Shown: positions 31,229 to 64,000 of the stretch, piece by piece
Numbering within the stretch: the stretch's first letter is position 1
Layout: each line of letters starts with the position of its first letter
DNA from: Candidatus Omnitrophota bacterium
GTDB taxonomy: Bacteria; Omnitrophota; Gorgyraeia; Gygaellales; Profunditerraquicolaceae
Assembly: GCA_003598135.1 (NCBI GenBank)
Contig: QZKA01000027.1
Coordinates: forward strand, 20,788-84,787
DNA length: 64,000 bases
Reading direction: 5' to 3'
The notes under the pieces: generated by a model
What the model saw: the letters and a program-made list of their open reading frames with translations, nothing else
What the model was told of the DNA's origin: nothing
Database searches by the model: none
Program-made: the position numbers and the translations under genes

Positions 31229-32482
31229 ATGTTTTCACTTGGCAAATTCTTTAAGGGCGGTGACGGGTTTGGCCGCAACGTGCTTGTGGTGTTCTTCGGT
31301 ACTTCCCTGCTCAGTATCTTTAATCTTCTTTATCAGCTCCTTATAGCGCACCGGCTCAGCCCTGTGGATTTCGCCGTATTTAATTCTTTATTATCCCTGT
31401 TTCTCATATTCTCCGCTCCTTTGCTTACCCTGCAGGCTGTAACTGCAAAGTTTGCCGCTGAATTTGCCGCACGCAGCGAGGTCAATAAAATCAAAACCTT
31501 ATTTTCCGGGCTTCTTTTAAAGAGCGTGCTTTTCTCCCTTGGGACTTTTTTTGTCTTTCTTGTATGTGCTCCCCGCATTGCCTCAAGTTTAAAAATACCC
31601 TCTTATGGGCCGGTGTATATGCTTATGTGGTTGGTTGCGTTTGCATGGATTCTGCCCGTATTATTGGGCGGCCTCCAGGGGCTAAAAAAATTTAACTGGT
31701 TCGTATTTTCTTCGATAAGCGGCGGAGGGCTGAAACTGGTTTTGGCATTTGTATTCATTAGTTTTGGCTTCGGCATAAGCGGGGCGCTCGGCGGATATCT
31801 GGTCGCTACTATCGTTACTATCCTTATTGCAATGGTTGCGCTGCGGTCTTTTATCGTTGGGAAGGAGCAATGGGTTTATGTACATTTTAAGGAAATTTAC
31901 AGATATTTCTTCCCCCTCATTATCAGTAACCTCTGTTTTACGGGGCTGGTGAATAGCGATATGGTGTTGGTAAAATACTATTTTAGCCCTGAGAAGGCAG
32001 GCCTTTATTCCCTATCTCAAATGGTCGGAAAGATTTTTTTATTCCTTCCGATGGCTATCAGCGTAGTCATGTTTCCCCATGCCAGTTCCTTAAACGCCAA
32101 GGCGCAAGATGCCCGCCCCGTTCTGAATAAGTCGCTTTTATATGCCACGACCTTATGCGTCGCTGCAATCCTTTTTTATAACCTTTTCCCGGAGCGGACG
32201 CTTATTTTACTTACAGGCAAGATTTACCCGGAGTCGATTTTTGTTGGAAGGCTTTTCAGTGTTTCCATGACCGGCTTTGCATTATCTTTTCTGTTAATGA
32301 ATTATTTTCTCTCCGTTAAGGACCTGCGTTTTATCAAATTCATTTTTATAATTGCGGGTATACAGCTATTGTCGATTTTGATTATTCATCGCAGCCTCGC
32401 AGAGGTCCAGTATATTCTCTGCGTGAGCGCGCTTGTACTTTTTTCATCGTTATTCATATTATCCAGGAAGAGTTCGGCATGA
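31229..32482 (+). CDS. wzx: Wzx-like oligosaccharide/polysaccharide flippase (MOP superfamily)
   Basis: A 417-aa protein with about 12 TM helices and the polysaccharide-biosynthesis-protein topology. Confidence 0.7.
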   Translation: MFSLGKFFKGGDGFGRNVLVVFFGTSLLSIFNLLYQLLIAHRLSPVDFAVFNSLLSLFLIFSAPLLTLQAVTAKFAAEFAARSEVNKIKTLFSGLLLKSVLFSLGTFFVFLVCAPRIASSLKIPSYGPVYMLMWLVAFAWILPVLLGGLQGLKKFNWFVFSSISGGGLKLVLAFVFISFGFGISGALGGYLVATIVTILIAMVALRSFIVGKEQWVYVHFKEIYRYFFPLIISNLCFTGLVNSDMVLVKYYFSPEKAGLYSLSQMVGKIFLFLPMAISVVMFPHASSLNAKAQDARPVLNKSLLYATTLCVAAILFYNLFPERTLILLTGKIYPESIFVGRLFSVSMTGFALSFLLMNYFLSVKDLRFIKFIFIIAGIQLLSILIIHRSLAEVQYILCVSALVLFSSLFILSRKSSA

Positions 32483-33279
32483 AGAACCTGACAACAGAAA
32501 AAGTCTCTATTATCATGCCTGCGTTTAACGAGGCAGAACATATCGTCAATAGCATCAGAGAGACTGCCAAGACTTTTCAGGAATTTGGATGCGCCTGGGA
32601 GTTGATTGTTATTGATGACGGTTCCACCGATTCTACGTTCGAATTGGCAAGATCCCTCTGTAGCGAATTCCCCGGGAATCTTATCGTGAAGAAAAATGCT
32701 CATCGAGCCAGGGGAAAAGGGCGAGCATTCAAAAAGGCGTTTCATTATGTAAGTGGTGATTATGTTGTTTTTTTGGATGCGGATATGGACCTGCATCCTA
32801 TTCAGGTACAAACGCTCTTTGATATCATGAGATTCGATAATGCAGACGTGGTTATCGGTTCAAAGCTACACCCTAACTCGATCGTAAATTATCCAGGGCA
32901 TCGTCGGATAATGAGTCTTGTATATTATTACCTCATTAAGATCTTGTTTAACTTGCCTTGCCGCGATACCCAGACCGGGCTAAAATTATTCAAGACCGAG
33001 GTATTACGTAAAGTCTTTCCGCGCCTATTAGTCAAAAAATTTGCCTACGATTTAGAAGTTTTGGTAAATGCGCACCATCTGGGATTTCAGATTGCTGAGG
33101 CCCCTATAAAGCTTAGTTCTCAGAGGAAGTACGGAAGGATAGGCCTCAGGGCCGTATGTGCCACTACTTGGGATACTCTGGCTATATTTTACCGCATGTA
33201 TGTCTTGAAATATTATGACCGTATCGATTATCATCGCCGTAAAAACCTGGCAAAGGAATTTAGAAGAATGCGTCGTTAG
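32479..33279 (+). CDS. GT2 glycosyltransferase, Dpm1/GtrB-like (polyprenyl-phosphate sugar synthase type)
   Basis: VSIIMPAFNEAEHI...LIVIDDGSTDST and DADMD (DxD). Length 266 aa. Confidence 0.75.
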   Translation: MKNLTTEKVSIIMPAFNEAEHIVNSIRETAKTFQEFGCAWELIVIDDGSTDSTFELARSLCSEFPGNLIVKKNAHRARGKGRAFKKAFHYVSGDYVVFLDADMDLHPIQVQTLFDIMRFDNADVVIGSKLHPNSIVNYPGHRRIMSLVYYYLIKILFNLPCRDTQTGLKLFKTEVLRKVFPRLLVKKFAYDLEVLVNAHHLGFQIAEAPIKLSSQRKYGRIGLRAVCATTWDTLAIFYRMYVLKYYDRIDYHRRKNLAKEFRRMRR

Positions 33280-34189
33280 GTGCATTGAGCTGTCGCAGAG
33301 CAATTTTGAAATCATCATCTTGCCCGACGAACCTTTCTCTTTCGATTTATTGCCAAGGCAGGCATCTGTTCCTATTGCGATTATCCCCACCGGAAGCGTG
33401 ACTCCCGCAAAAAAAAGAGATCTTGGTGTTACGCATGCAAAAGGCGAAATACTGGCATTTTTGGATGATGACGCCTATCCCGACAAAAACTGGCTGGTAA
33501 ACGCAGTGAGGCATTTTCAAGACTCCAAAGTTGCGGCTGTTGCCGGCCCAGCAGTGACACCGACAACTGATTCGATAAAACAGAGGGCAAGCGGGGAGGT
33601 GTATTCCTCGTTTCTGGTGAGCGGCAGTTACGCCTACCGTTATTTTCCGAATCGACAAAGAGAAGTTGACGACTATCCGAGCTGTAATTTCCTGGTCCGT
33701 AAATCCGTAATGGAAGAGATAGGGGGGTTCAATACCAATTTTTGGCCGGGTGAAGATACCAAGCTGTGCTTAGAGATAACGAAGAAACTGCATAAAAAAA
33801 TCACCTACGATCCGAAAGTCCTGGTCTTTCATCACCGCAGGCCCTTGTTTATTCCTCATTTAAAACAAATTGCAAGTTACGCATTGCATCGCGGCTACTT
33901 TGTAAAAAAGTACCCTGAAACTTCTTTAAGGGTTGCATATTTTATACCAAGCGTCTTTCTTGCTGCGCTTGTCATCGGCGCAGTATTTTCTCTATTCTTC
34001 CCAGCCCTAATCAACATTTATATTGCTGGCCTGCTATGTTACTTCGTACTTGTGCTCTTGGAAGCTATACGTAAAAACCCTCGTTTGATTTTTTATGTAT
34101 TCCTTGGGATAATCCTGACGCACCTGACATACGGAGCTTATTTTATAAAAGGCTTATTCCGAAAAAGGCTCCCGGAGGAGGAAGAATGA
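33215..34189 (+). CDS. GT2 glycosyltransferase with a C-terminal transmembrane anchor
   Basis: VSIIIAVKTW...LDDDAYPD (DxD) is the GT-A core. Three predicted C-terminal TM helices follow. It overlaps the upstream GT2 by 65 nt. Confidence 0.65.
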   Translation: MTVSIIIAVKTWQRNLEECVVRCIELSQSNFEIIILPDEPFSFDLLPRQASVPIAIIPTGSVTPAKKRDLGVTHAKGEILAFLDDDAYPDKNWLVNAVRHFQDSKVAAVAGPAVTPTTDSIKQRASGEVYSSFLVSGSYAYRYFPNRQREVDDYPSCNFLVRKSVMEEIGGFNTNFWPGEDTKLCLEITKKLHKKITYDPKVLVFHHRRPLFIPHLKQIASYALHRGYFVKKYPETSLRVAYFIPSVFLAALVIGAVFSLFFPALINIYIAGLLCYFVLVLLEAIRKNPRLIFYVFLGIILTHLTYGAYFIKGLFRKRLPEEEE

Positions 34190-35697
34190 AGGTCATTATC
34201 TCATACCCTCCGCTTGATGCAGCGAAAGGCTGTCCGACTCTCGGCCAGAACAGGCAGTTCCAATATTTTAAAGACCCTACCTTTATTTATCCGGTAGTAC
34301 CGGCACAGGCCGCCACATTACTTAAAAACTCAGGTTTCAAGGTAATCTGGAATGATTGCATTGCCTTGGGCTGGACATATGAGCAGTTTCTAGACTTCGT
34401 AAAAGAGGAAAAGCCTGACTTAATCGCCTTTGAGACCAAAACTCCCGTAATCAAGCAGCATTGGCAGATTATCAATAATATCAAACGACTTTCGTCAGCC
34501 GGCTGCCGTCCGTGGATAGTGCTCTTCGGCGACCACGTGACTGCGCTTCCCGAAGAGTCGTTTCAAAATTCAGAGGTTGATTATGTTCTTACCGGAGGCG
34601 ATTACGACTTTTTGCTGCTTAACCTGTGCAAATTTCTATCTTCTCAACTCAATACTCAATACTCAATACACAATACATCACTAGAGCCCGGAATCTATTA
34701 TCGCGAACATAAAGAAGTAAAAAACACCGGAAAATTCCAGCTCAATCATGACTTGAGCCAACTCCCTTTTATAGACCGTGATCTTACAGGCTGGGAAATG
34801 TACGCGTATCAAAACGGAAACTATAAACGGACTCCGGGGACTTATATTATGAGCGGCAGGGATTGCTGGTGGGCGCGCTGTTCTTTTTGCTCATGGCCGA
34901 CTCTCTATCCGTCGTTTAGGGTAAGAAATATAGATAATGTATTGGATGAAATAGGCATGCTTTTGGAGCGTTACAAGGTACGCGAAATAATGGATGATAC
35001 GGGATGTTTTCCTGCTGGGGATTGGCTTGGAGATTTTTGTTGCGGTTTGCTGAAACGGGGATACGAGAAGAAAATGTACATAGATTGCAATGCCCGGTTC
35101 GGCGCTCTGAGTAAGATTGATTTCAAGTTAATGAGAAAGGCAGGGTTTCGTTTGTTGCTATTTGGCCTTGAGTCCGCCAATCAAAAGACACTCGATAGAA
35201 TAAATAAGAACGTCAAGGTAGAAAGAATGATCGCCGATTGTCAGAATGCCTCCAGGGCAGGCCTCTTTCCACACATCACTATTATGTTTGGCTATCCCTG
35301 GGAATCGTTCGAAGATGCATCCCGAACGCTTCAATTGGGGTCATGGTTGTTGAAAAAGGGATATGCGTACACTATGCAGGCGACTATTGTCATACCATAT
35401 CCCGGGACTCCTTTATTTCAGGAGTGTAAAGAAGAGGGATGGCTTAAGACCGTTGATTGGGATAGGTATGATATGAAAGAAGCAGTGATGCGTATTCCTT
35501 TTGCCGAAGATGCGATGCGCCAGTTGGTACAAGGCATGTATAAAGTCTCTTTCGGCCCTGAGTTTATCGCAAGAAGGTTATTCTCAATCAGAGACACGGA
35601 TGACGTAGCGTATTTCCTCCGTGCTGCAAAAAAAGTGCTCGGGCATATTTTTGACTTTAGGAATAAAAAGTCATGTAATGGAAAAAAGCAAGTATAG
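34186..35697 (+). CDS. Cobalamin-binding (class B) radical SAM protein with a non-canonical Cx4Cx2C cluster motif
   Basis: Has an N-terminal B12-binding-like Rossmann domain and the motif CWWARCSFC in place of the usual CxxxCxxC. A downstream GLESANQKTLD motif is typical of radical SAM proteins. The start overlaps the upstream GT2 stop (ATGA). Confidence 0.7.
   Translation: MKVIISYPPLDAAKGCPTLGQNRQFQYFKDPTFIYPVVPAQAATLLKNSGFKVIWNDCIALGWTYEQFLDFVKEEKPDLIAFETKTPVIKQHWQIINNIKRLSSAGCRPWIVLFGDHVTALPEESFQNSEVDYVLTGGDYDFLLLNLCKFLSSQLNTQYSIHNTSLEPGIYYREHKEVKNTGKFQLNHDLSQLPFIDRDLTGWEMYAYQNGNYKRTPGTYIMSGRDCWWARCSFCSWPTLYPSFRVRNIDNVLDEIGMLLERYKVREIMDDTGCFPAGDWLGDFCCGLLKRGYEKKMYIDCNARFGALSKIDFKLMRKAGFRLLLFGLESANQKTLDRINKNVKVERMIADCQNASRAGLFPHITIMFGYPWESFEDASRTLQLGSWLLKKGYAYTMQATIVIPYPGTPLFQECKEEGWLKTVDWDRYDMKEAVMRIPFAEDAMRQLVQGMYKVSFGPEFIARRLFSIRDTDDVAYFLRAAKKVLGHIFDFRNKKSCNGKKQV
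34649..34676 (+). repeat. Imperfect tandem heptanucleotide repeat (TCAATAC x3 perfect plus one ACAATAC) inside the radical SAM CDS
   Basis: Read directly from the sequence: tcaatac tcaatac tcaatac acaatac. The encoded peptide is NTQYSIHNT. Confidence 0.5.
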
Positions 35698-36703
35698 CTA
35701 TTCAGTCGACGGACATAACCGGCTTCTGATAAAATCCCCAGGAAGCAAAAAAGCTGTTTCCCCCAACGGACAATTCCGGGTAACCAGAGATAACGGACTT
35801 TCGTTTTGGCTCAATGAGCCTCCTTCCTGGAGAAAAGAAAACAACCTTCCTAAGAAAATTACTTTTACCGGAACCTGGCAGCTGGATGAAAAGAACGGCC
35901 TGGAGTTCATTCTGGATAAAAGCAGATATCAAAATGCAGGAGAGAAGATTAGCTTTAAAGGCAAGCTCTTTGCGGTTGACGGAAATTCTGTCGCCTTTTC
36001 GATTTCCAGTTATAAAGAAGCGGCTTTGCGCTTGAGCCGTATCCAGACATTCAGGCTTGCCGGCTTATGGCAGGCAGATAAATATAACCGCCTCAATTTT
36101 ATTATCAGCCGGAAATTGCATTCTGATACGCTTACATTTGAGGGCGGCTGGCAGATCAACAAAAACCAGCAGATTGTGTATATATGCGAGAAGACAGGCC
36201 TCAAGAACAAAACCAGGATTTCTGAAGAAGTGGTATTGCGGGGTTATTGGCAGATAGTAAATAATAGAAGGTTAGTATATATACTTTCCCATAACGGCGA
36301 TTCCTGTCTTGAGTTCCGCGTCCAGCTCGAAACACCTAATCTCTACCCTCAAAAGGGAAAAATAAAGTTTCGTCTTGGAGTAGGCCTTAAAAAGAACAGG
36401 CCACCTGTGCCAAAAACTATTTGTCTTTACGGAGAGTGGAAGTTTTCCCACAAGTGGGGGTTAGTTTTTGCAATGGATTACGGGGCAGGAACAGTACACA
36501 ACATTGAGTTCGGTTTTACAGTTGCAGTACATAACGCAGACAGTATTTCGGTAAGTTTGACAAACAAACAAAACGAACCCCTTGGTATTACGGTTACTTT
36601 TACGCATCGTTTTTTAAAAGAACATGGCGCGCAAGGTTTTATCCGGTTAAAACCGGAAAGGAAAAGGTCGGGCCTGGAAGCAGGATTTACTTTTCCGTTT
36701 TAA
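35678..36703 (+). CDS. Uncharacterised cytoplasmic protein with five internal G-x-W-Q beta-hairpin-like repeats
   Basis: The repeats are TGTWQLDEKNGLEFIL, AGLWQADKYNRLNFII, EGGWQINKNQQIVYIC, RGYWQIVNNRRLVYIL and YGEWKFSHKWGLVFAM. It has no signal peptide. The start is taken at MEKSK (35678), overlapping the upstream gene by 20 nt. Confidence 0.5.
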   Translation: MEKSKYSYSVDGHNRLLIKSPGSKKAVSPNGQFRVTRDNGLSFWLNEPPSWRKENNLPKKITFTGTWQLDEKNGLEFILDKSRYQNAGEKISFKGKLFAVDGNSVAFSISSYKEAALRLSRIQTFRLAGLWQADKYNRLNFIISRKLHSDTLTFEGGWQINKNQQIVYICEKTGLKNKTRISEEVVLRGYWQIVNNRRLVYILSHNGDSCLEFRVQLETPNLYPQKGKIKFRLGVGLKKNRPPVPKTICLYGEWKFSHKWGLVFAMDYGAGTVHNIEFGFTVAVHNADSISVSLTNKQNEPLGITVTFTHRFLKEHGAQGFIRLKPERKRSGLEAGFTFPF

Positions 36704-36876
36704 AGCCATTTCTGCAGCATAAAAAGCTTTTAAAAGTTCATAACGTATGGGATAATAATAAGTTAAATACCTTTTAAAACAAAGAATCTTTTAGAAAAAT
36801 GCGGCTGTACGGTTAATAGGGATAAACAGGCGCGTTGCTGGTTTATAATAAATTTTGCTTTGTAGAGGAGCCTAAA

Positions 36877-38565: not shown

Positions 38566-38661
38566 TATTTTAGAATTCTGGCCACACCTTGGACTAAAGC
38601 AATAGGCGGTAGGCGCATAACGGCAAATTCTCAACACCTTCAAAAATTATTTGATTGTACT

Positions 38662-52584: not shown

Positions 52585-52590
52585 CAAGAT

Positions 52591-53649: not shown

Positions 53650-53652
53650 AGC

Positions 53653-54381: not shown

Positions 54382-54383
54382 CT

Positions 54384-56258: not shown

Positions 56259-56264
56259 AAAGAA

Positions 56265-57794: not shown

Positions 57795-57803
57795 AGGGCT
57801 CCA

Positions 57804-58985
57804 TTGAAAACAAAGAATGTATTAATACTGGATGGCTTTACCAAGCATTCCCTCCCCTTTGTTCGGTCCCTGGGAAAAGAGGGGATCAGGATTACCCTCG
57901 GTTCTCCGGTGAAGTACCTGTCATTATCTTTTTATTCTAAATTCGTAAACAGGTTTTTCAGGTATCCCGAACCCGAAAGTAATCCCCAAGGCTTTGTTGA
58001 AGCCTTATTAGAAGAAGTCAAAAAGACCCATTATGACGCTATTTTTCCTTTAAGGGATGCTTCTACGTATCTTGTCTCCCGCCATAAGAAAGAGTTCCTC
58101 AAGCATACGAATACCGCTGTTGCCGATTTTAATCAGATGGAGATCGCTTCAGATAAATCTAAGACTATAACCTTTGCGCGAGGGCTGGGCGTAGCAATAC
58201 CCGTAACAAAAACTATCGATGAACAGGGTTTTTCCAGCCTTTGCGATTCAGACTTTCCCGCGGTTTTGAAGTTACCGATGAAATCCGGAGGGGTAAGGTA
58301 TGTAAACTCAAAGAGTGAGTTTCTCGGAGCTTTCAGGGCATTACGCAGCGAAAAGAGCGTTCTTTCTACCGGGCGAGTGTTGTTACAGGAATATATACCC
58401 GGACAGGGCTATGGCTACTTTGCGCTTTGTGACCAAGGCAGGGTTATTGCGCATTTCATGCATAAAAGAATCAGGGAGTATCCGGTAACTGGCGGCATCA
58501 GCGCGGCAGCCGAAAGTGTTTACGAAGATGGCCTGAAGTCTATCGGAGAATTAATCTTGAGCAGGCTACGGTGGCACGGGGTTATCATGATGGAATTCAA
58601 GCGCGATGCGCGCGATAACTCTTTTAAGCTTATGGAGCTCAATCCTAAATTCTGGGGGTCACTGGATTTAGCTATCGCCTGCGGGGTGGATTTTCCTGTT
58701 CTTGCCTATCGTCTTGCAACGCAGGAAGCATTAATTCCCCCTTTAAGCTATAACGTGGGAACGAAATTCCGATGGCTTATTCCGTGGGAGATCCTGCATG
58801 TATGTGCGAAGCCCGCTTCTCTGCCGGCTTTTATACGTGATTTTAAAGAAAAGAATGTTTTCTATGACATAGACTACCGGGACTTAAAACCTAACCTTTT
58901 TCAATGGCTTCTATTTTTAGGGTATGCGCGATACTATAAAGGCAAGCTGAAATTCCCTCACGGAAGGCCGCCATGTATACGGTAG
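57804..58985 (+). CDS. ATP-grasp domain protein (carboxylate-amine ligase-like)
   Basis: ATP-grasp signatures (LKLPMKSGGVRYV, LLQEYIPG, MELNPKFWGS). A TTG start at 57804 is the first in-frame start after the upstream stop; the start is uncertain. Confidence 0.55.
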   Translation: MKTKNVLILDGFTKHSLPFVRSLGKEGIRITLGSPVKYLSLSFYSKFVNRFFRYPEPESNPQGFVEALLEEVKKTHYDAIFPLRDASTYLVSRHKKEFLKHTNTAVADFNQMEIASDKSKTITFARGLGVAIPVTKTIDEQGFSSLCDSDFPAVLKLPMKSGGVRYVNSKSEFLGAFRALRSEKSVLSTGRVLLQEYIPGQGYGYFALCDQGRVIAHFMHKRIREYPVTGGISAAAESVYEDGLKSIGELILSRLRWHGVIMMEFKRDARDNSFKLMELNPKFWGSLDLAIACGVDFPVLAYRLATQEALIPPLSYNVGTKFRWLIPWEILHVCAKPASLPAFIRDFKEKNVFYDIDYRDLKPNLFQWLLFLGYARYYKGKLKFPHGRPPCIR

Positions 58986-59605
58986 ATTTTCATATTCATT
59001 CACGGTACTCTTTCGACGCGCTTTCTTCCATAGACGGATTGCTCTGCAAAGCAAAGAAGTGCGGTTTAGACGCAATCGCGATTACCGACCACAATACGAT
59101 ACGGGGAAGCGTTGAGGCTGCGCGAAGAAACACAGACCCGGGATTTTTGGTAATCTGTGCTTCTGAGGTTGCTACGGAATTCGGGGATATGATCGGTTTG
59201 TTTCTCAATAAAGAAATCACCTCGCGAAAGTGTGCTGATGTAATCGAGGAAATAAAAGGGCAGGGTGGAGTAGTATTGATTCCGCATCCGGACTTACGCA
59301 GGCTGCCGTTATCCATTCTTAAGTCCGCCGATTTGATAGAACTTTACAGTGCCCGCAGTCCTGCGAAAGAGGAATTACGAATTGCGCAGATTGCCGAGGA
59401 GTGCTCTTTGATACCTGTAGGAGGTAGTGACGCGCACTTTGTTTCCGATGTGGGTAGCTGTCTGAATACGTATGAGGAAAAAATAGCCAACATGGAATCG
59501 CTTAAAGCGGTCGTTACCCGCAGTGCTCCCGATGTCAAGATACTGAAGAAAGCGTCGTTTCTTAAATTTTGCGCCAGCCAGCTCATAAAGCATATTAAAT
59601 CATGA
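58973..59605 (+). CDS. PHP-domain metal-dependent phosphoesterase
   Basis: N-terminal DFHIHSRYSFDA...AIAITDHN is the His-rich PHP motif. Length 210 aa. Confidence 0.65.
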   Translation: MYTVDFHIHSRYSFDALSSIDGLLCKAKKCGLDAIAITDHNTIRGSVEAARRNTDPGFLVICASEVATEFGDMIGLFLNKEITSRKCADVIEEIKGQGGVVLIPHPDLRRLPLSILKSADLIELYSARSPAKEELRIAQIAEECSLIPVGGSDAHFVSDVGSCLNTYEEKIANMESLKAVVTRSAPDVKILKKASFLKFCASQLIKHIKS

Positions 59606-60585
59606 AAACGCAATTATGGGACAGCCTTATTAAGGTTTTGGGCCGGGTGATTGCCAGGTACTATTTAAAAAAGCCTTCATTTGAGTATATTATTTCCACT
59701 CGCTACCCAAGCGCATCCGCGTTTTTTTTAGACTCCTTGAATCAATTGATGAGGGGCTTGGGTTCAACGTTTGTGTTTGGCCTGACTACCGTGACGTTTG
59801 AGTTGACAAATGTATGTAACCTAAAATGCTCTATCTGTCCGGTAAATTCTGGAATGAAGCGGAAAAGGGGCCTTTTTCCGCTCAAGGAGTACAAAAGAAT
59901 AATTGATGCAAATCCTCTTATAAGAAGGGTAGGTTTGGTAAATTGGGGGGAGCCGCTTCTGCATCCGGAATTCGTAGAATTTATTACGTATGCTTCTTCT
60001 AAGGGCATCCATACGTCAACCACGACTAATGCAGTATTACTTAACGAAGGCAAATGTAAAGAAATAATAAGTAGCGGGTTAGATATTATGAGATTTTCCA
60101 TGGATGCAGTCGGAAAAGAATACGAGAAAATACGAGGGCATAATTATCTAGAAGTAAAACAGAATATCGAGCGCTTCATAGAATATAGGAACCGAAACAA
60201 CCCGCGGATGAAGATTGAAATAACCGCAGTGATTGGTAATGATAACGAAGCGGACATCGGGGCGCTTAAAGAAGAGTGGAAAGGCAAAGTCGATTTCATC
60301 AATTTTCAACCGTTGTTGTTATTCCAAAAGCATTCAAGGCAACAGGCGTGCAGGGAATTATGGAGGAGCCTCTACGTGCTCGTTGACGGAACCGTTATTC
60401 CCTGTTGCGCTGATTATGAAGGATTGCTTGATGTAGGGAATGCGTTTACTCAGGATTTAGAGAAAATATGGAACGGCAGGCTGATTCGGGAACTAAGGCG
60501 CGGGCATTTATCTAGGAGGTTTCAAGCTACATGTGCTCTTTGCTCGGAATTTTCGTCCAGCCGGATAGAAAGCAGGTTTCAATAA
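59602..60585 (+). CDS. Radical SAM protein with a C-terminal Cys-rich (SPASM/twitch-like) region
   Basis: CNLKCSICPV is the CxxxCxxC cluster motif, near the N-terminus. C-terminal cysteines sit at CCADYEGL...CALCSE. Confidence 0.7.
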   Translation: MKTQLWDSLIKVLGRVIARYYLKKPSFEYIISTRYPSASAFFLDSLNQLMRGLGSTFVFGLTTVTFELTNVCNLKCSICPVNSGMKRKRGLFPLKEYKRIIDANPLIRRVGLVNWGEPLLHPEFVEFITYASSKGIHTSTTTNAVLLNEGKCKEIISSGLDIMRFSMDAVGKEYEKIRGHNYLEVKQNIERFIEYRNRNNPRMKIEITAVIGNDNEADIGALKEEWKGKVDFINFQPLLLFQKHSRQQACRELWRSLYVLVDGTVIPCCADYEGLLDVGNAFTQDLEKIWNGRLIRELRRGHLSRRFQATCALCSEFSSSRIESRFQ

Positions 60586-60588
60586 GAT

Positions 60589-62061
60589 ATGAAAATTTTG
60601 CTTATTTTTCCTCCGCTTGTTCATAAACAGATATATGACCTTCCTGAGTTTGTTGAAAATGAAGCGTCTTTGCATCCTCCTTTAGGCTTAATGTCTTTGG
60701 CTGGCTACCTGCAACGCTTCAGTAGGCATGAAGTGAGGATCCTTGATGCCAATGCGCAAAAAATGGAGTATCGTCAATTAAGTCAGGCCCTGCAGGAATA
60801 TGGGCCGGATCTGGTAGGGATAACCGTAAATACCACCTTTTTATACGATGCAGCGTTAACTGCCAAAACGGTGAAGGAAGTAGACAGAGATATCCATGTC
60901 TGCCTTGGCGGCGCCCATGTGAATTTGTATCCAAACCAGACCATGCGCCTGGAAGGGGTTGATTCAGTGGTGGTAGGTGACGGAGAATTATCCTTCATGA
61001 AGTTGGCCGATTCTCTTAGCGAAGAAAAAAATGGGTCAGGCATTGACGGCGTTTTCATAAGTAAGACAGACAGAGATAAAAAAATAAATCCCATGAATCC
61101 TGCCTATTATATCGATGACCTCGATTCTTTGCCGTTTCCTGCGCGCGGCCTGGTAAACCCACAAGATTATTACTCGGTTTTTTCTTCAGGAAAGACAAAA
61201 TTGATGACTTCACTCGTTACCAGCAGGGGGTGTCCTTTCAGGTGTTCTTTTTGCCAGCTGCCTTTTGAGAAACTCAGGATGCGCTCCCCAAAGAATGTTA
61301 TTGAAGAAATAGAAGAGTGTGTCGAAAACGGTTATGCAGAATTTGATATTTACGATGACACATTCAATTTTTCCATAGACAGGGTAATTGAGATATGCAA
61401 GCTTATTTGTGAGAAGAAGTTTAAGATCGAGTGGTCATTCAGGGGAAGGGTGGATAGGGTTAATAGAGAAATGTTGCAATGGGCAAAAAAGGCAGGATGC
61501 AGCCGGATTCAGTTCGGAATTGAGTCTGGGTCACAGCGGATATTATCCGCATACAACAAAGGAATATCCTTAAGCGATGTCTATGAGGCATTCAGGCTTA
61601 TGCGCCAAGTCGGTATCGCTTCTTTTGCCTATTTTATTGTGGGAGGGCCTGGTGAGACACTGCAAGATTTCGAGGAGTCGCTTACGTTGATTAAAAAGAT
61701 AAAGCCCGACTACATCACCTTTTCCATCTTAAAACCGATGCCCGGAACAGCCATATACGACTTAAGCCTAAAAAAAGGGTTACGAAAAAATGATTACTGG
61801 GAGGGGTTCGCACGTAATCCTACAAAAGACTTTATCCCTCCGCTATGGGAGGAGAACTTTACTCTTAGTGAATTGATAGCGTTGCGTAACCGTGCGCTGA
61901 GAAGTTTTTATTTCCGCCTTTCGTATATCGCACGCAGGGCAACTACTATAAAGAGCCTCAATGAACTAACGAATATGGTCAAATCGGGAATTTTACTTTT
62001 TAGGGATATCTGCGTAAGTCCGATATTCAAGGCCTCTATACAACATGTTAAGAAAACTTAA
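60589..62061 (+). CDS. Cobalamin-binding (class B) radical SAM protein, copy 5
   Basis: B12-binding N-terminus (ILLIFPPLV...PLGLMSLAGYL) and TSRGCPFRCSFCQLP. Confidence 0.85.
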   Translation: MKILLIFPPLVHKQIYDLPEFVENEASLHPPLGLMSLAGYLQRFSRHEVRILDANAQKMEYRQLSQALQEYGPDLVGITVNTTFLYDAALTAKTVKEVDRDIHVCLGGAHVNLYPNQTMRLEGVDSVVVGDGELSFMKLADSLSEEKNGSGIDGVFISKTDRDKKINPMNPAYYIDDLDSLPFPARGLVNPQDYYSVFSSGKTKLMTSLVTSRGCPFRCSFCQLPFEKLRMRSPKNVIEEIEECVENGYAEFDIYDDTFNFSIDRVIEICKLICEKKFKIEWSFRGRVDRVNREMLQWAKKAGCSRIQFGIESGSQRILSAYNKGISLSDVYEAFRLMRQVGIASFAYFIVGGPGETLQDFEESLTLIKKIKPDYITFSILKPMPGTAIYDLSLKKGLRKNDYWEGFARNPTKDFIPPLWEENFTLSELIALRNRALRSFYFRLSYIARRATTIKSLNELTNMVKSGILLFRDICVSPIFKASIQHVKKT

Positions 62062-63196
62062 AAAGAGGATCGATAGTTTTATCGCCCATCCTAACTCCCA
62101 GGACGAAGGAATATTTTCGCTTCTGTGGCAGGCAATGCCATATTACGTCTCGAGGAAGGGCTTTAGCCTTTTCCCTAAAATAATTTATCTGGTTGTCAAT
62201 AGCGTCTGCAATCTTCATTGTAAAATGTGCGATGTGGGAATGAATGATAAGGAGACCTATTTTTATAAGAACATGGTGGCAGATGCGCGCCAGGAACTCG
62301 ACCCCACCCGGCTTAAAGCACTTTTTGAAGAAGTAAAAAAGTTCAAACCGCTTATTTCCATCACCTCAACCGAGCCACTTTTGTACGGTCCTTTGCTGGA
62401 AGTCTGTGAATATGCTACAAAGAAATGCGGCTTAAAAGTTTCCATAAATACCAACGGACTGCTATTGGAGGATATGGCAGAAGGACTTCTTCGTGCCGGA
62501 ATTACAAGGATTGTAGTTTCACTGGACGGGCCGCCTGAGGTTAACGATATGATACGCGGTTTTTCCGGTGGTTTTAACCGCGTTTTGGCCGGAATGCGCA
62601 AAATCGACCGGATTAAAAAACAGAGAAAGCTGCGATACCCGCGTTTTGCCACTATCCATGTAGTCACCAATTATAATTATGATTCGCTTGACCGCATCCC
62701 GGATTACTTCAGCGGTATTGACATAGAAAAATTTATTTTTTCGCATATGACATTCATTACGCAGGAGATGGCTGATGCCCATAACCGCATATATGCGCAT
62801 ATCTATCCCATTACGCACTCCTGTATCGGGGGAGGGATTGATCCGAAAAAGGTTGATGTTGAGGTACTCTGGGACCAGCTTAATAAGGTCAAAAGAATGC
62901 TTAAAAATAAAGCATTCTTCAGCCCGACAATGGATAAAGAGGATTTGCAGAAATACTACCTTGAGCCTGATAGTTTTGTCGGCGGACACCGTTGCTATAT
63001 TCCCTGGGGGGTAAGCCAGATTACTGCCAGCGGCGATGTGATTGGCCTTACCCGCTGTTTTCATTACCCGATGGGCAATATATATGAGAATAGCTTTAAG
63101 GAGATATGGAACGGAGATAAATTGAGAAGATTCAGGAAGGATTTACGCGCAAAAGGTGCTTTTGTTGCCTGTAGCCGTTGCCGCGGAGTGTTATAG
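62045..63196 (+). CDS. Radical SAM protein with a C-terminal Cys cluster
   Basis: CNLHCKMCDV is the CxxxCxxC cluster motif, near the N-terminus. C-terminal cysteines sit at CFHYP...CSRCRG. Confidence 0.7.
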   Translation: MLRKLKKRIDSFIAHPNSQDEGIFSLLWQAMPYYVSRKGFSLFPKIIYLVVNSVCNLHCKMCDVGMNDKETYFYKNMVADARQELDPTRLKALFEEVKKFKPLISITSTEPLLYGPLLEVCEYATKKCGLKVSINTNGLLLEDMAEGLLRAGITRIVVSLDGPPEVNDMIRGFSGGFNRVLAGMRKIDRIKKQRKLRYPRFATIHVVTNYNYDSLDRIPDYFSGIDIEKFIFSHMTFITQEMADAHNRIYAHIYPITHSCIGGGIDPKKVDVEVLWDQLNKVKRMLKNKAFFSPTMDKEDLQKYYLEPDSFVGGHRCYIPWGVSQITASGDVIGLTRCFHYPMGNIYENSFKEIWNGDKLRRFRKDLRAKGAFVACSRCRGVL

Positions 63197-63198
63197 AG

Positions 63199-63927
63199 AT
63201 GCGCGAGCTTTCTTTGGTTATTCCTTTATACAATGAAGCAGATAATATCAGCGAATTGATTGAAACACTATCCCGTGCGTTGGATAAAGAGAAAATAGAT
63301 TACGAGCTTGTGCTTGTGGATAATGGCTCATGCGATGCGACAGGAGACTTGATTGAAAAATACTCAAGGACCAACAATCGCATACGTAAAGTAACAGTGG
63401 TTAAGAATCGTGGCTATGGCTGGGGGATTATTAAAGGCCTGGAAGGGGCTTGCGGTGAGTATCTCGGTTTTATGTGCGGAGACGGCCAGATAAAGCCGGC
63501 AGATGTCGTAAAGGTATATAGAAAATTAACAGAAAAACGCCTGGATTTATGTAAAGTCAGGAGGGTTTTCCGGGAAGACGGGTTGCAACGTAAAGTCATA
63601 TCGTTTTTCTATAACGCGATTTTCGGCGTTCTTTTTAAGGCACACACCGATGATATAAACGGCACCCCCAAGATATTTGCGCGCCGCTTATATGAGGCGC
63701 TTAAGCCCGTTTCAAAAGATTGGTTCATCGATGCGGAGATCATTCTGAAGTGCGCGCAATTGCGCGGTAAGGTTGGGTCAGTACCGGTAACATTCTACAA
63801 GAGGAAGTGCGGCTCAACCAATGTGGGGCTGGCTACGATTATGGAGTTCCTTAAAAACATTACATTATATTATTTCATGCCGGAGAAATTCAGAAGGGAA
63901 CATGGAGACGTCACTAAAAGGCTGTAG
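63199..63927 (+). CDS. GT2 glycosyltransferase, Dpm1-like
   Basis: LSLVIPLYNEADNI...LVLVDNGSCDAT. The start at 63199 falls 3 nt after the upstream stop. Confidence 0.75.
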   Translation: MRELSLVIPLYNEADNISELIETLSRALDKEKIDYELVLVDNGSCDATGDLIEKYSRTNNRIRKVTVVKNRGYGWGIIKGLEGACGEYLGFMCGDGQIKPADVVKVYRKLTEKRLDLCKVRRVFREDGLQRKVISFFYNAIFGVLFKAHTDDINGTPKIFARRLYEALKPVSKDWFIDAEIILKCAQLRGKVGSVPVTFYKRKCGSTNVGLATIMEFLKNITLYYFMPEKFRREHGDVTKRL

Positions 63928-64000
63928 AGTCCTGGTTACGGGCATAAACGGTTTTATCGGCTCTCATCTAGCGCGGGAGTTGATTGCGACCGGAGCAGAG
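63902..64000 (+). CDS. NAD-dependent epimerase/dehydratase (SDR); 5' end only, the gene continues past the window
   Basis: METSLKGCRVLVTGINGFIGSHLARELIATGAE is a Rossmann GxxGxxG N-terminus. Confidence 0.55.
   Translation, partial: METSLKGCRVLVTGINGFIGSHLARELIATGAE

What the first reader, a model, noticed from the sequence alone, without database searches (positions are those of the whole stretch)
32479..64000. Glycan locus of more than 30 kb carrying nine radical SAM enzymes, five of them cobalamin-binding, interleaved with Dpm1-like GT2s and Gfo/Idh/MocA oxidoreductases
On the + strand, in order, the block reads: GT2, GT2, B12-rSAM, repeat protein, Gfo, LbH acetyltransferase, B12-rSAM, GT-C-like membrane protein, DUF362-ferredoxin, Gfo, GT2, B12-rSAM, rSAM, SDR, rSAM, GT4, B12-rSAM, Gfo, WecB-like, GT2, AsnB-like, CE4-like, ATP-grasp, PHP, rSAM, B12-rSAM, rSAM, GT2, SDR. 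Most junctions have overlapping or abutting stop/start codons. Polysaccharide clusters usually contain zero or one radical SAM gene. Nine of them, mixing class B enzymes (known chemistry includes C-methylation, ring contraction and cyclisation at unactivated carbons) with SPASM/twitch-like enzymes (known dehydrogenation, epimerisation and C-C/C-S crosslinking), point to a heavily radical-tailored glycan or glycolipid. I do not know of a described pathway with this architecture. The block continues past the window end.
Basis: partly seen in the sequence, partly recalled or inferred. Interest (0 to 1): 0.9.

Follow-up and report, generated by a model that had tools for sequence, protein, structure and literature searches.

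The report
Radical-SAM-rich surface glycan gene cluster
An uncultured Omnitrophota bacterium has a cell-surface sugar-polymer gene cluster of at least 46 kb that contains nine radical SAM enzymes, which suggests sugar chemistry that has not been characterised; related clusters turn out to be widespread, including in culturable Flavobacteria.

Summary
Nine carry a radical SAM domain: four have a clear N-terminal B12-binding domain, one has a marginal B12 domain and a conserved CX4CX2C motif, and four have a SPASM/twitch domain.

The block is part of a larger Wzx-type surface-glycan locus. It starts at 23607, just after tyrS, with ManC, Ugd, RmlABD and Wzx. It continues at least 5 kb past the window with an SDR, RfbH and two GT-C-like proteins. 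The organism is an Omnitrophota MAG.

No rSAM reaches any curated NCBIfam cut-off. The closest solved relatives are carbohydrate-tailoring enzymes: AprD4, BlsE, DesII and BtrN. The GT2s tested against solved structures resemble DPMS/ArnC. The Pfam-less membrane protein folds as a GT-C.

My best explanation is inferred, not shown. SPASM enzymes remodel nucleotide sugars. B12 enzymes alkylate or rearrange polyprenyl-phosphate-linked sugars made by the adjacent GT2s. GT-C enzymes then transfer these sugars outside the cytoplasm.

The architecture is not unique. Colinear or related rSAM-rich glycan loci occur across Omnitrophota, Armatimonadota, Bacteroidota and other phyla. I found no published description.

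The parts
23607..30901 (+). Nucleotide-sugar supply genes at the true 5' end of the locus, directly after tyrS (22399-23586): TviC/GalE-like SDR 23607-24557, ManC 24529-25950, Ugd 25954-27255, SDR 27252-28190, RmlA 28220-29086, RmlD 29079-29912, RmlB 29870-30901.
   Evidence: Pfam; NCBIfam.
31229..32482 (+). Wzx-type flippase with 12 predicted TM segments.
   Evidence: PF01943, 38 bits against a cut-off of 28.2. Hydropathy scan. Conserved as Wzx-GT2-GT2-rSAM in L001, L088, L097, L099, L106, L107 and L110.
32479..33279 (+). GT2_1, a soluble ArnC/DPMS-like GT2.
   Evidence: PF00535. Best PDB hits are ArnC at 1.5e-16 and DPMS at 1.3e-15.
33215..34189 (+). GT2_2, a GT2 with two C-terminal TM helices.
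   Evidence: PF00535; hydropathy; only a generic PDB match.
34186..35697 (+). B12rSAM_1, a radical SAM enzyme with a diverged B12-like N-terminal domain and a CX4CX2C cluster motif.
   Evidence: PF04055, 46.6 bits. PF02310, 28 bits, below the 32.1 cut-off. The motif is conserved in homologues. 279 representatives at E < 1e-30.
35678..36703 (+). 'rep', an all-beta repeat protein of 341 aa with no signal peptide. Among the homologues that carry a source name, all are Omnitrophota, and the family is found in glycan loci.
   Evidence: No Pfam hit. 64 homologue clusters, of which all named ones are Omnitrophota. AF2 model is poor, pLDDT 58.7. Genomic contexts.
36835..37905 (+). Gfo_1, a Gfo/Idh/MocA oxidoreductase that best resembles UDP-GlcNAc 3-dehydrogenase.
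   Evidence: Pfam. NF040723, 189 bits against a cut-off of 450.
37906..38565 (+). LbH sugar N-acetyltransferase, NeuD/PglB/VioB-like.
   Evidence: PF00132. TIGR03570, 96 bits against a cut-off of 161.
38662..39969 (+). B12rSAM_2, a class B radical SAM enzyme.
   Evidence: PF02310, 68 bits; PF04055, 78 bits; CPYHCVFC motif.
39963..41483 (+). GT-C-fold membrane glycosyltransferase from a family with no Pfam model. Has an invariant Asp28 in the first loop.
   Evidence: AF2 pLDDT 92.3. Foldseek matches STT3/AglB/PglB/DPY19/ArnT/ALG9/AftA at probability 1.0, TMq 0.54-0.60. Alignment.
41465..42724 (+). DUF362 protein with a C-terminal 2x[4Fe-4S] ferredoxin domain. Candidate electron donor for the rSAMs; this role is inferred.
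   Evidence: PF04015, 151 bits, plus Fer4. Conserved next to B12 rSAMs in L001, L002, L084 and L089.
42741..43754 (+). Gfo_2.
   Evidence: Pfam. NF040723, 196 bits against 450.
43755..44483 (+). GT2_3, a DPMS-like polyprenyl-phosphate sugar synthase candidate.
   Evidence: PDB best hit is DPMS 5mlz at 1.2e-17 over residues 10-228, then ArnC and GtrB. NCBIfam best hit is PpgS, below cut-off.
44480..45871 (+). B12rSAM_3, class B rSAM with a hydrophobic C-terminal segment.
   Evidence: PF02310, 73 bits; PF04055, 78 bits. PDB best hit is AprD4 at 2e-18. 2,856 homologues scored E <= 1e-10 among the 8,000 candidates examined.
45852..46907 (+). SPASM_1, a SPASM/twitch rSAM.
   Evidence: PF04055 and PF13186. 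47% identical to SPASM_2.
46911..47879 (+). SDR_c, an NDP-sugar 4,6-dehydratase/epimerase-like SDR flanked by the two paralogous SPASM rSAMs.
   Evidence: Pfam; NCBIfam.
47860..48915 (+). SPASM_2, a SPASM/twitch rSAM.
   Evidence: Pfam. PDB best hits are BlsE, SkfB and DesII.
48912..50069 (+). GT4 glycosyltransferase.
   Evidence: PF00534.
50074..51507 (+). B12rSAM_4, class B rSAM. The ORF extends back to 50017, but the likely start is the Met at 50074.
   Evidence: PF02310, 65 bits; PF04055, 98 bits.
51553..52584 (+). Gfo_3.
   Evidence: Pfam. NF040723, 207 bits against 450.
52591..53649 (+). WecB, a non-hydrolysing UDP-GlcNAc 2-epimerase.
   Evidence: TIGR00236, 286 bits, above the 210 cut-off.
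53653..54381 (+). GT2_4, a Dol-P-hexose transferase/ArnC-like GT2.
   Evidence: NCBIfam best hits, below cut-off. Part of the cassette conserved in L006, L009 and L011.
54384..56258 (+). AsnB-type glutamine amidotransferase.
   Evidence: TIGR01536, 496 bits, above the 267 cut-off.
56265..57794 (+). Putative sugar de-N-acetylase, distantly VimE-like. Co-occurs with SPASM_4 across phyla.
   Evidence: NF053580, 55 bits against 440. No Pfam or PDB hit. Co-occurrence.
57804..58985 (+). ATP-grasp ligase.
   Evidence: PF15632.
58973..59605 (+). PHP-domain metallohydrolase.
   Evidence: PF02811 and PF13263.
59602..60585 (+). SPASM_3, a SPASM/twitch rSAM. The public gene call starts after the Cys motif.
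   Evidence: Pfam. Motif at residues 72-79. JGI call of 243 aa.
60589..62061 (+). B12rSAM_5, class B rSAM.
   Evidence: PF02310, 74 bits; PF04055, 100 bits.
62045..63196 (+). SPASM_4, a SPASM/twitch rSAM.
   Evidence: Pfam. PDB best hit is BlsE at 1e-10, also BtrN. 378 relatives confirmed among GTDB species-representative genomes in many phyla.
63199..63927 (+). GT2_5, an ArnC/PgfS-like GT2.
   Evidence: Pfam; NCBIfam. Exact product found on JGI/NCBI contig Ga0394679_019197.
63902..64000 (+). 5' end of an SDR of 319 aa. Beyond the window follow RfbH (447 aa), a PMT_2 GT-C (489 aa) and a second weakly PMT_2-like membrane protein (at least 467 aa).
   Evidence: locus L087; L087 position 1 corresponds to window 53199.

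Best explanation
This is one long, co-oriented Wzx-dependent cell-envelope glycan locus, of the O-antigen or EPS type, in a diderm anaerobic Omnitrophota bacterium.

Shown:
- The locus encodes supply routes for dTDP-rhamnose, GDP-mannose, UDP-glucuronate, a 3,6-dideoxyhexose (RfbH) and UDP-ManNAc (WecB).
- It encodes a Wzx flippase, five small GT2s plus one GT4, and three GT-C-fold or GT-C-like membrane transferases.
- It encodes nine radical SAM enzymes with intact cluster motifs and a DUF362-ferredoxin.

Inferred mechanism:
1. The four SPASM/twitch rSAMs act on nucleotide-linked sugars. They would perform BlsE/DesII/BtrN-type redox chemistry: dehydrogenation, decarboxylation, deamination or epimerisation. 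They would work with the SDRs and with the three Gfo enzymes that resemble UDP-GlcNAc 3-dehydrogenase.
2. Each DPMS/ArnC-like GT2 loads one sugar onto polyprenyl phosphate.
3. The adjacent B12-type rSAM modifies that lipid-linked sugar at an unactivated carbon. C-methylation or C-alkylation is most likely; ring rearrangement of the HpnJ or OxsB type is the alternative. The DUF362-ferredoxin would supply electrons.
4. In the 52591-63927 sub-cassette an amino sugar is de-N-acetylated, then re-acylated or amidated by the ATP-grasp ligase and AsnB. This follows Arn-like and HpnI/K/J-like logic.
5. After flipping, GT-C enzymes transfer the modified sugars onto the glycan outside the cytoplasm.
For: Domain content.

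Glycan-locus identity:
- Wzx, RmlABD, ManC and Ugd are upstream, and RfbH is downstream above its curated cut-off.
- A related Omnitrophota locus carries the same Wzx-GT2-GT2-B12rSAM_1-rep core together with a phosphoglycosyl transferase, Wzy_C and DegT.
- An Armatimonadota relative has Wza/Wzz next to B12 rSAMs and AsnB.

Polyprenyl-phosphate route:
- GT2_1 and GT2_3 match ArnC/DPMS/GtrB best among solved structures.
- 'memb' has a GT-C fold.
- Further PMT_2, YfhO or GT87 GT-Cs are present in the downstream region and in related loci.
- B12 rSAMs lie next to a GT2 in the window (33215/34186 and 43755/44480) and in L001, L084 and L088.

Sugar substrates:
- The best solved relatives are AprD4 for B12rSAM_3 and BlsE, DesII and BtrN for SPASM_2 and SPASM_4.
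- SPASM_1 and SPASM_2 flank an NDP-sugar SDR.

Cassette logic:
- WecB-GT2-AsnB-deacetylase...SPASM_4 is conserved in Syntrophorhabdaceae, Betaproteobacteria and Phycisphaerae.
- In L009 it sits with DegT, a formyltransferase, a CE4 deacetylase and a FemAB-like acyltransferase. That is an ArnB/A/C/D-like set.

rSAMs working as a unit: a 1,696-aa protein fuses a B12 rSAM, a SPASM rSAM and a second B12 rSAM.

Distinct conserved functions: orthologues in other genomes are 48-87% identical, while the B12 rSAM paralogues within the window are only 22-34% identical.
Against: - No substrate, product or activity is known for any of the nine enzymes.
- None reaches any NCBIfam equivalog cut-off.
- Sequence cannot separate B12-dependent methylases from non-methylating class B enzymes. 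The best profile hits (HpnJ, BchE) and the best structural hit (AprD4) are in fact non-methylases.
- B12rSAM_1 has only a marginal B12 domain.
- No Wzy, WaaL or initiating phosphoglycosyl transferase was found inside the window or in the 5 kb downstream.
- No aminotransferase accompanies the three 3-dehydrogenase-like Gfo enzymes. The only DegT-family gene is the dehydrase RfbH. The Gfo role is therefore unclear.
- GT2/rSAM adjacency is an observation on a handful of loci, not a statistical test.
- A 45%-identical homologue of B12rSAM_3 sits in a lipid context with UbiA, a polyprenyl synthase and a desaturase.
Confidence: 0.55

Rival explanations
1. The locus makes the same glycan, but all nine rSAMs act only at the soluble nucleotide-sugar stage. 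They produce unusual NDP-sugars that ordinary GTs then use. The GT2/GT-C pairs are simply Gtr-like side-branch glycosylation systems that happen to lie next to the rSAMs.
For: The best solved relatives act on soluble nucleoside-linked or free sugars: BlsE, DesII, BtrN and AprD4. SPASM_1 and SPASM_2 flank an SDR. None of the rSAMs has a clear TM helix apart from one weak C-terminal segment in B12rSAM_3.
Against: B12 rSAM/GT2 adjacency recurs across divergent loci. Modification at the lipid-linked stage has precedents in ArnD, DprE1/2 and HpnK/J (established knowledge, recalled from memory). The number of DPMS-like GT2s (5) matches the number of B12 rSAMs (5).
Confidence: 0.25
2. The rSAMs tailor a lipid rather than sugars, for example polyprenyl, ether or membrane-spanning chains as done by GrsA/B, Tes, Gmm or HpnP/R. 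The GTs then glycosylate that lipid, so the product is a radical-modified glycolipid.
For: Class B rSAMs have well-documented lipid chemistry (review PMC13459092). A 45%-identical homologue of B12rSAM_3 lies beside UbiA, a polyprenyl synthase and a fatty-acid desaturase. Bacteroidota relatives sit with an MsbA-like ABC exporter and a GT9.
Against: There are no lipid-synthesis genes inside the locus; PlsC and IspH at 19-21 kb lie among housekeeping genes. The context is dominated by nucleotide-sugar enzymes, Wzx and RfbH. The SPASM members resemble sugar-acting enzymes.
Confidence: 0.1
3. The rSAMs mature a peptide or protein, as in a RiPP or a glycoprotein such as an S-layer protein. The glycan genes would glycosylate that product.
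For: B12 and SPASM rSAMs, ATP-grasp and AsnB-like (lasso-cyclase-like) enzymes are typical RiPP tools. NCBIfam lists many RiPP maturases among the sub-threshold hits. The best fold matches for 'memb' are oligosaccharyltransferases.
Against: There is no room for a precursor gene; the largest intergenic gap inside the block is about 170 nt. No leader peptidase or RiPP exporter is present. No RiPP rSAM model reaches its cut-off. 'memb' has only a small C-terminal domain of about 120 aa, and I saw no WWDYG-type motif by eye.
Confidence: 0.05
4. This is not one pathway. It is a mosaic of independent cassettes for several different glycans (O-antigen, side-branch decorations, a second polymer) that accumulated at a variable surface-glycan hotspot downstream of tyrS.
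For: The 52591-63196 cassette occurs on its own in other phyla. L001 shares the tyrS-proximal position and the first modules, then diverges. 'rep' and the Wzx-GT2-GT2-rSAM core occur with different partners. Omnitrophota polysaccharide cassettes are reported as hypervariable (bioRxiv 10.64898/2026.06.07.730766).
Against: There is a single strand, near-continuous translational coupling and uniform GC of 0.42-0.46. Gene order is identical in relatives whose proteins are about 71-97% identical, on two contigs. This rival is compatible with the best explanation rather than exclusive of it.
Confidence: 0.3

Closest known systems
Hopanoid side-chain module HpnI (GT2) / HpnK (deacetylase) / HpnJ (B12-type rSAM, proposed ring contraction to cyclitol ether)
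   Same: It combines a GT2 that puts an N-acetyl-hexosamine on a lipid, a de-N-acetylase and a class B rSAM. HpnJ is the first or second NCBIfam hit for all five B12 rSAMs. The pathway is described in PMC13459092.
   Different: Scores are 131-174 bits against a cut-off of 578, so these are not HpnJ orthologues. No hopanoid genes are present. The context here is a Wzx glycan locus with nine rSAMs.
Arn pathway (ArnB/A/C/D/T): modification of an aminosugar on undecaprenyl phosphate, then GT-C transfer
   Same: It uses ArnC-like GT2s, a deacylase step, GT-C transferases and a flippase. The related L009 cassette also has DegT, a formyltransferase and a CE4 enzyme.
   Different: Arn has no radical SAM enzymes and transfers a single sugar to lipid A. 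Here several GT2/GT-C sets coexist with rSAMs.
Aminoglycoside sugar-tailoring rSAMs (GenK, GenD1 as C-methylases; AprD4 as diol dehydratase; BtrN as dehydrogenase)
   Same: These are class B and twitch rSAMs acting on sugars. AprD4 is the best solved match for B12rSAM_3 (2e-18), and BtrN matches the SPASM region of SPASM_4.
   Different: They belong to secondary-metabolite pseudo-oligosaccharide pathways in Actinobacteria, with one to three rSAMs per cluster. Identity is low and NCBIfam cut-offs are not met (AprD4 model: 84-110 bits against 500).
BlsE (cytosylglucuronate decarboxylase) and DesII (TDP-4-amino-4,6-dideoxyglucose deaminase)
   Same: They are the best solved relatives of SPASM_2 and SPASM_4 and are rSAMs acting on nucleoside-linked sugars.
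   Different: E-values are only 1e-10 to 3e-6, over the rSAM core. NCBIfam BlsE and DesII scores are 39-56 bits against cut-offs of 400-450.
Canonical Wzx/Wzy O-antigen loci with rfb genes (RmlABD, ManC, RfbH)
   Same: Wzx, RmlA/B/D, ManC, Ugd, WecB and RfbH are present. A related locus carries a PGT and Wzy_C.
   Different: Wzy and a PGT were not found in the sequence available here.
Three-component extracytoplasmic glycosylation (GtrA/B/C; CsbB-GtcA-YfhO)
   Same: It pairs a DPMS-like GT2 with a GT-C transferase. YfhO and PMT_2 homologues sit next to B12 rSAMs in L003, L001, L084 and L022.
   Different: No rSAM is part of the known systems.

Membership tests
Radical SAM superfamily | PF04055 domain with a three-Cys [4Fe-4S] motif (CX3CX2C or a recognised variant) | tested here: met
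   Nine proteins match PF04055 at 47-100 bits against a cut-off of 29.5. Eight have CX3CX2C. One has CX4CX2C, conserved in its family.
Class B (cobalamin-dependent) radical SAM | N-terminal B12-binding Rossmann domain (PF02310) preceding the rSAM core | tested here: met
   Met for 38662, 44480, 50017 and 60589 (65-74 bits against 32.1). Inconclusive for 34186-35697 (28 bits, below cut-off).
Class B (cobalamin-dependent) radical SAM | Actual cobalamin binding or use | not testable with these tools
   AprD4, the best solved match, is a class-B-like enzyme that I recall does not use cobalamin (from memory). Domain presence is therefore not proof of cobalamin use.
SPASM/twitch radical SAM | C-terminal PF13186 domain with Cys ligands for auxiliary cluster(s) | tested here: met
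   PF13186 scores 27-53 bits against a cut-off of 21.5 in 45852, 47860, 59602 and 62045. Only 4-6 C-terminal Cys are present, enough for one auxiliary cluster, so they look twitch-like.
HpnJ / BchE / PhpK / HpnR / ladderane B12 rSAM / AprD4 / RiPP C-methylase equivalogs | Score at or above the curated NCBIfam cut-off | tested here: not met
   All scores are far below cut-off. Examples: HpnJ 131-174 against 578; BchE 80-182 against 481.
Only HMM and PDB proxies were used.
GT-C glycosyltransferases | GT-C fold: a multi-TM core with a conserved acidic residue in the first extracytoplasmic loop, plus a C-terminal soluble domain | tested here: met
   The model has pLDDT 92.3 and pTM 0.91. All 24 Foldseek hits at E <= 0.001 are GT-C enzymes. 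Asp28 is invariant. There is no Pfam hit, so this is an undescribed family.
Polyprenyl-phosphate sugar synthases (DPM1/DPMS, ArnC, GtrB) | Sequence membership | tested here: inconclusive
   Best PDB hits are DPMS and ArnC (1e-17 and 1.5e-16). Best NCBIfam hits are PpgS, Dol-P-hexose transferase and ArnC, all below cut-off. Four of the five GT2s lack the C-terminal TM helices of ArnC/GtrB.
Polyprenyl-phosphate sugar synthases (DPM1/DPMS, ArnC, GtrB) | Transfer of a single sugar to polyprenyl phosphate | not testable with these tools
   This needs a biochemical assay.
Wzx/Wzy-dependent O-antigen locus | Wzx flippase | tested here: met
   PF01943 is above its cut-off and 12 TM segments are predicted.
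Wzx/Wzy-dependent O-antigen locus | Wzy polymerase (or WaaL) and an initiating phosphoglycosyl transferase | tested here: not met
   Neither was found in 23607-64000 or in the 5 kb downstream. Both are present in the related locus L088. They may lie elsewhere in the genome.
UDP-2,3-diacetamido-2,3-dideoxy-(manno)uronate pathway (WbpA/B/E/D/I) | A 3-dehydrogenase, aminotransferase, N-acetyltransferase and 2-epimerase set | tested here: not met
   Gfo x3, LbH and WecB are present. No aminotransferase is present. The only DegT-family gene is RfbH, a dehydrase with 'YPAHH' in place of the catalytic Lys.
RiPP biosynthetic cluster | Precursor peptide gene plus cognate maturase families | tested here: not met
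   No intergenic space exceeds about 170 nt in the block. No RiPP maturase model is above its cut-off.

The most novel reading that the evidence does not exclude
These loci define an unrecognised and phylogenetically widespread route of envelope-glycan diversification, mainly in anaerobes. In this route, monosaccharides already mounted on polyprenyl phosphate by DPMS/ArnC-like GT2s are rebuilt by dedicated cobalamin-type radical SAM enzymes through C-alkylation, ring contraction or carbocycle formation. GT-C enzymes then install them on the cell surface. The resulting sugar types would be unknown in bacterial polysaccharides.
Probability: 0.3. Interest if true: 0.85.

Novelty: new variant of a known kind. 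Interest (0 to 1): 0.68.

Why it matters
Radical SAM chemistry on sugars is so far known almost only from antibiotic and hopanoid pathways. If envelope polysaccharides of Omnitrophota, Bacteroidota and other phyla are routinely tailored by several class B and twitch rSAMs, three things follow:
- There is a large untapped set of sugar structures and enzyme reactions, including C-methyl or C-alkyl branched sugars, carbocyclic sugars and anaerobic alternatives to oxygenase chemistry.
- Surface glycans of ultra-small, possibly host-attached Omnitrophota may be chemically unusual. That would bear on phage and host recognition and on resistance to glycosidases.
- Thousands of 'B12-binding radical SAM protein' annotations gain a testable functional context.

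Related clusters in cultured Flavobacterium enshiense, Crocinitomix catalasitica, Roseivirga and Winogradskyella make the question experimentally approachable.

Tried and rejected
- Exact-product look-up of B12rSAM_3 failed, probably because the public gene call uses a different start. The look-up succeeded with GT2_5 from its internal Met.
- The 'VimE' literature search returned only vimentin papers.
- Five literature searches combining radical SAM or cobalamin with polysaccharide, O-antigen, S-layer glycan or Omnitrophota found no description of such loci. My recollection that the Kuenenia S-layer glycan paper mentioned radical SAM genes was wrong: the term occurs zero times in it.
- The AF2 model of the 'rep' protein was too poor (pLDDT 58.7) for a fold search.
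- I rejected 'rep' as an obligate partner or substrate of B12rSAM_1. About half of its closer homologues sit in glycan loci without that rSAM.
- I rejected the long homologues of B12rSAM_1 as GT2-rSAM fusions. They carry inteins instead.
- I rejected the UDP-ManNAc3NAcA pathway reading because no aminotransferase is present.
- Promoter and terminator scans were near shuffle expectation and uninformative.
- There were no tRNA or Rfam hits.
- GC is uniform, so there is no compositional sign of recent transfer.

Full report
OBSERVATION

The region 32479-64000 is an unbroken run of + strand genes.

Nine proteins carry PF04055, with E-values from 6e-12 to 1e-28. HMMs I built locally find exactly five B12-type and four SPASM-type rSAM ORFs in the 64-kb window, all inside 34186-63196.

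Four B12 domains are secure, at 65-74 bits against a gathering score of 32.1. The fifth protein (34186-35697) scores only 28 bits and has CX4CX2C instead of CX3CX2C. That variant ('RDCWWxxCTFC') is conserved in its family.

With start sites corrected against public gene calls and orthologues, 13 junctions overlap, 12 have gaps of 16 nt or less, and 3 have gaps of 45-173 nt. The caveats are that only '4 + 1' B12 domains are supported, and that the 'CE4-like' call rests on a single sub-threshold match to the VimE deacetylase model, with no Pfam or PDB match.

TRUE EXTENT AND ORGANISM

Upstream Pfam scans show housekeeping genes up to tyrS (22399-23586). They are followed by an SDR, ManC, Ugd, an SDR, RmlA, RmlD, RmlB and a 12-TM Wzx (31229-32482). 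The glycan locus therefore begins at 23607. LptD and a secretin further upstream indicate a diderm.

The GT-C-like protein is 100% identical to 'C4540_05465, Candidatus Omnitrophota bacterium'. The best hits of other genes are also Omnitrophota.

An exact-product look-up of GT2_5 recovered a public contig that extends 5.2 kb past the window. It encodes an SDR, a DegT-family protein that passes the curated RfbH model (570 bits against 423) and has the 'YPAHH' dehydrase signature, a PMT_2 GT-C, and a second membrane protein with a weak PMT_2 match.

The locus is therefore at least 46 kb and contains classical O-antigen markers. GC is uniform at 0.42-0.46. There are no tRNA or Rfam hits.

WHAT THE PARTS RESEMBLE

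None of the nine rSAMs reaches any NCBIfam equivalog cut-off. The B12 types score best against HpnJ and BchE (80-182 bits against 481-578). The SPASM types score best against the tungsten-cofactor maturase model (86-112 bits against 380).

Among solved structures, B12rSAM_3 is closest to AprD4, followed by an unnamed rSAM (9ccb), CysS, TokK and OxsB. SPASM_2 and SPASM_4 are closest to BlsE, and also match DesII and BtrN. The nearest characterised relatives are thus carbohydrate-tailoring enzymes, although only at superfamily-level similarity.

The three Gfo enzymes are 44% identical to each other and best match UDP-GlcNAc 3-dehydrogenase, below cut-off. WecB and AsnB pass their curated models.

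GT2_1 and GT2_3 match ArnC, Pyrococcus DPMS and GtrB best among solved structures. GT2_3, GT2_4 and GT2_5 have polyprenyl-phosphate sugar synthases as their best NCBIfam hits.

The Pfam-less membrane protein (39963-41483) gave a confident AF2 model, with pLDDT 92.3 and pTM 0.91. Its significant Foldseek hits are exclusively GT-C enzymes: STT3/AglB/PglB, DPY19, ArnT, ALG9/12 and AftA. An Asp in the first loop is invariant across 30 homologues.

COMPARATIVE GENOMICS

Relatives whose proteins are about 71-97% identical (GCA_028717045.1; MAG207) are colinear over both contigs available.

A relative with proteins 26-74% identical (JGI 3300013138) has tyrS-Wzx-GT2-GT2-B12rSAM_1-rep, then LbH-Gfo-GT2-B12rSAM_3-DUF362-GT2-SDR-rSAM-GT4-3x B12 rSAM-PMT_2. 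It occupies the same chromosomal position, shares the early modules and then diverges, as expected for a surface-glycan locus.

Other Omnitrophota loci show:
- GT2-YfhO-3x B12 rSAM.
- DUF362-GT2-SDR-rSAM-GT4-2x B12 rSAM-Gfo-B12 rSAM-GT2-B12 rSAM...PMT_2.
- A canonical PGT-Wzy-DegT-Wzx set directly preceding GT2-GT2-B12rSAM_1-rep.

A metagenome scan seeded with 'rep' found 12 more loci with the B12rSAM_1-rep pair. Two of them continue Gfo_1-LbH-B12rSAM_2(-memb-DUF362) as in the window.

An Armatimonadota homologue sits beside Wza/Wzz and AsnB.

The sub-cassette WecB-GT2_4-AsnB-deacetylase...SPASM_4 recurs in Syntrophorhabdaceae, a Betaproteobacterium and Phycisphaerae. In the Betaproteobacterium it is embedded in an Arn-like set: DegT, a formyltransferase, a CE4 deacetylase, a FemAB-like acyltransferase and a Wzx-like protein.

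SPASM_4 relatives (31-37% identical) occur in about 70 Bacteroidota, Ignavibacteria and Gemmatimonadota genomes, usually with one to six B12 rSAMs within 10 kb. In Flavobacterium enshiense DK69 the cluster reads NTase-B12 rSAM-MT-MT-GT-C-GT4-ABC exporter-GT2-SPASM-B12 rSAM. In Crocinitomix catalasitica ATCC 23190 it reads SPASM-MT-B12 rSAM-GT9-rSAM-GT87-...-B12 rSAM-MT.

Across the loci of at least 15 kb that I fetched, the mean is 3.2 rSAMs and the maximum 7 per 21 kb. The window's density of nine in 31 kb is at the high end but of the same kind.

A 1,696-aa protein fuses a B12 rSAM, a SPASM rSAM and a second B12 rSAM. This is consistent with the two enzyme classes working together.

Orthologues of the window's B12 rSAMs in other genomes are 48-87% identical, while the paralogues in the window are only 22-34% identical. 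These are old, functionally distinct enzymes, not recent duplicates. SPASM_1 and SPASM_2, at 47% identity, are the exception.

MECHANISM (INFERRED)

The most economical reading is a Wzx-dependent envelope glycan whose sugars are tailored at two stages.

First, nucleotide sugars are remodelled by SDRs, 3-dehydrogenase-like Gfo enzymes, RfbH and the twitch/SPASM rSAMs, which would perform BlsE/DesII/BtrN-type chemistry.

Second, DPMS/ArnC-like GT2s mount single sugars on polyprenyl phosphate. The adjacent class B rSAMs, reduced by the DUF362-ferredoxin, modify unactivated carbons of these lipid-linked sugars. C-methylation or C-alkylation is the commonest class B reaction. HpnJ/OxsB-type rearrangement is an alternative, and it is worth noting because the best profile and structural hits are non-methylases. 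GT-C enzymes then deliver the products to the glycan outside the cytoplasm.

The 52591-63927 cassette adds de-N-acetylation followed by amidation or N-acylation through AsnB and ATP-grasp. A FemAB-like enzyme substitutes for the ATP-grasp in L009.

Precedents for modifying a sugar after it is mounted on a lipid are ArnD, DprE1/E2 and HpnK/HpnJ. This is established knowledge; HpnI/K/J is as summarised in PMC13459092.

I put about 0.55 on this overall picture, and about 0.3 on the specific claim that the B12 enzymes act at the polyprenyl-phosphate stage.

WEAKNESSES

- No chemistry is shown.
- No Wzy, WaaL or PGT is present in the available sequence.
- The three Gfo enzymes lack a partner aminotransferase.
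- The GT2/rSAM adjacency has not been tested statistically.
- A 45%-identical homologue of B12rSAM_3 lies in an isoprenoid-lipid context, so a glycolipid or lipid role cannot be excluded.
- A RiPP or protein target is unlikely: there is no space for a precursor gene and no maturase model is above its cut-off.

NOVELTY

Searches of the paper library found nothing describing multi-rSAM polysaccharide loci. A 2026 Omnitrophota preprint mentions polysaccharide cassettes only as hypervariable regions.

The locus is a new variant of a known kind, a Wzx surface-glycan locus. It belongs to a widespread but uncharacterised class of rSAM-rich glycan clusters. It is not a one-off, which lowers the element of surprise but increases its reach and makes it testable in cultured Bacteroidota.

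Noticed in passing
Homologues of window 34186-35697 (P0237, P0238, P0241, P0249, P0252): Several homologues of B12rSAM_1 are 665-972 aa long because an intein is inserted in or next to the Fe-S cluster motif (RDCWWGKCTFC|intein|...NC|SWT). Most of these inteins include what looks like a homing-endonuclease region. One homologue (P0246) has lost the Cys motif altogether.
   Followed up: partly
L088:11406-13415 (GCA_043808095.1, Omnitrophota): An NDP-sugar epimerase/dehydratase of 669 aa is split by a LAGLIDADG-type insertion, a likely intein. This is a second intein within the same type of glycan locus.
   Followed up: no
window 59602-60585 and 62045-63196 (compare L087 gene calls): The public (JGI) gene calls for SPASM_3 (243 aa) and SPASM_4 (323 aa) start after or inside the CX3CX2C motif. 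A spurious 56-aa minus-strand gene is called in the gap. The longer ORFs that overlap the upstream stop codons contain the motif and fit the Pfam model.
   Followed up: yes
window 35678-36703: 'rep' is a 341-aa cytoplasmic all-beta protein with about five 'GxWxl..N.L.f' repeats. It has no Pfam family. All homologues that carry a source name are Omnitrophota, and the closer homologues sit in glycan loci, either after B12rSAM_1 or between Wzx/Ugd/RmlB and RmlA. Its function is unknown and AF2 could not fold it confidently.
   Followed up: partly
window 39963-41483: This GT-C-fold glycosyltransferase family has no Pfam model. 52 homologue clusters were found; the few that carry a source name are Omnitrophota, plus one Patescibacteria. 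Invariant residues are G26, D28, W30, Y61-P62-P63, R133, H239, D252 and G333-E334-G335.
   Followed up: partly
P0374 (1696 aa) and P0376 (1268 aa): These giant fusion proteins carry a shared N-terminal domain of about 300 aa of unknown function. It is followed by B12 rSAM-SPASM rSAM-B12 rSAM in P0374 and by two B12 rSAMs in P0376.
   Followed up: partly
L022 (Flavobacterium enshiense DK69) and L031 (Crocinitomix catalasitica ATCC 23190): Cultured Bacteroidota carry conserved clusters that combine B12 rSAMs, a SPASM rSAM, class I methyltransferases, GT-C (PMT_2 or GT87), GT2/GT4/GT9 and, in F. enshiense, an MsbA-like ABC exporter. To my knowledge they are uncharacterised, and they are tractable models.
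   Followed up: partly
L085 (JGI 3300035696): A 45%-identical homologue of B12rSAM_3 lies with two more B12 rSAMs, UbiA, a polyprenyl synthase and a fatty-acid desaturase. Next to these is a run of five further rSAM genes plus an HxsD-like gene. This is an rSAM-dense locus of a different kind, lipid- or peptide-related.
   Followed up: no
window 1-13000: An LptD-like protein lies at 75-1286 and a second UDP-sugar dehydrogenase at 1300-2610. Small genes lead to a secretin at 9578-11182, probably a type IV pilus or T2SS operon. RNase E/G is at 11545-12984. The small genes at 2531-9578 were not annotated.
   Followed up: no
window 22399-23586 versus L001:549-1730: In two Omnitrophota whose shared locus proteins are only 26-74% identical, the glycan locus starts immediately downstream of tyrS. 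This suggests a conserved chromosomal site with variable cassette content.
   Followed up: partly
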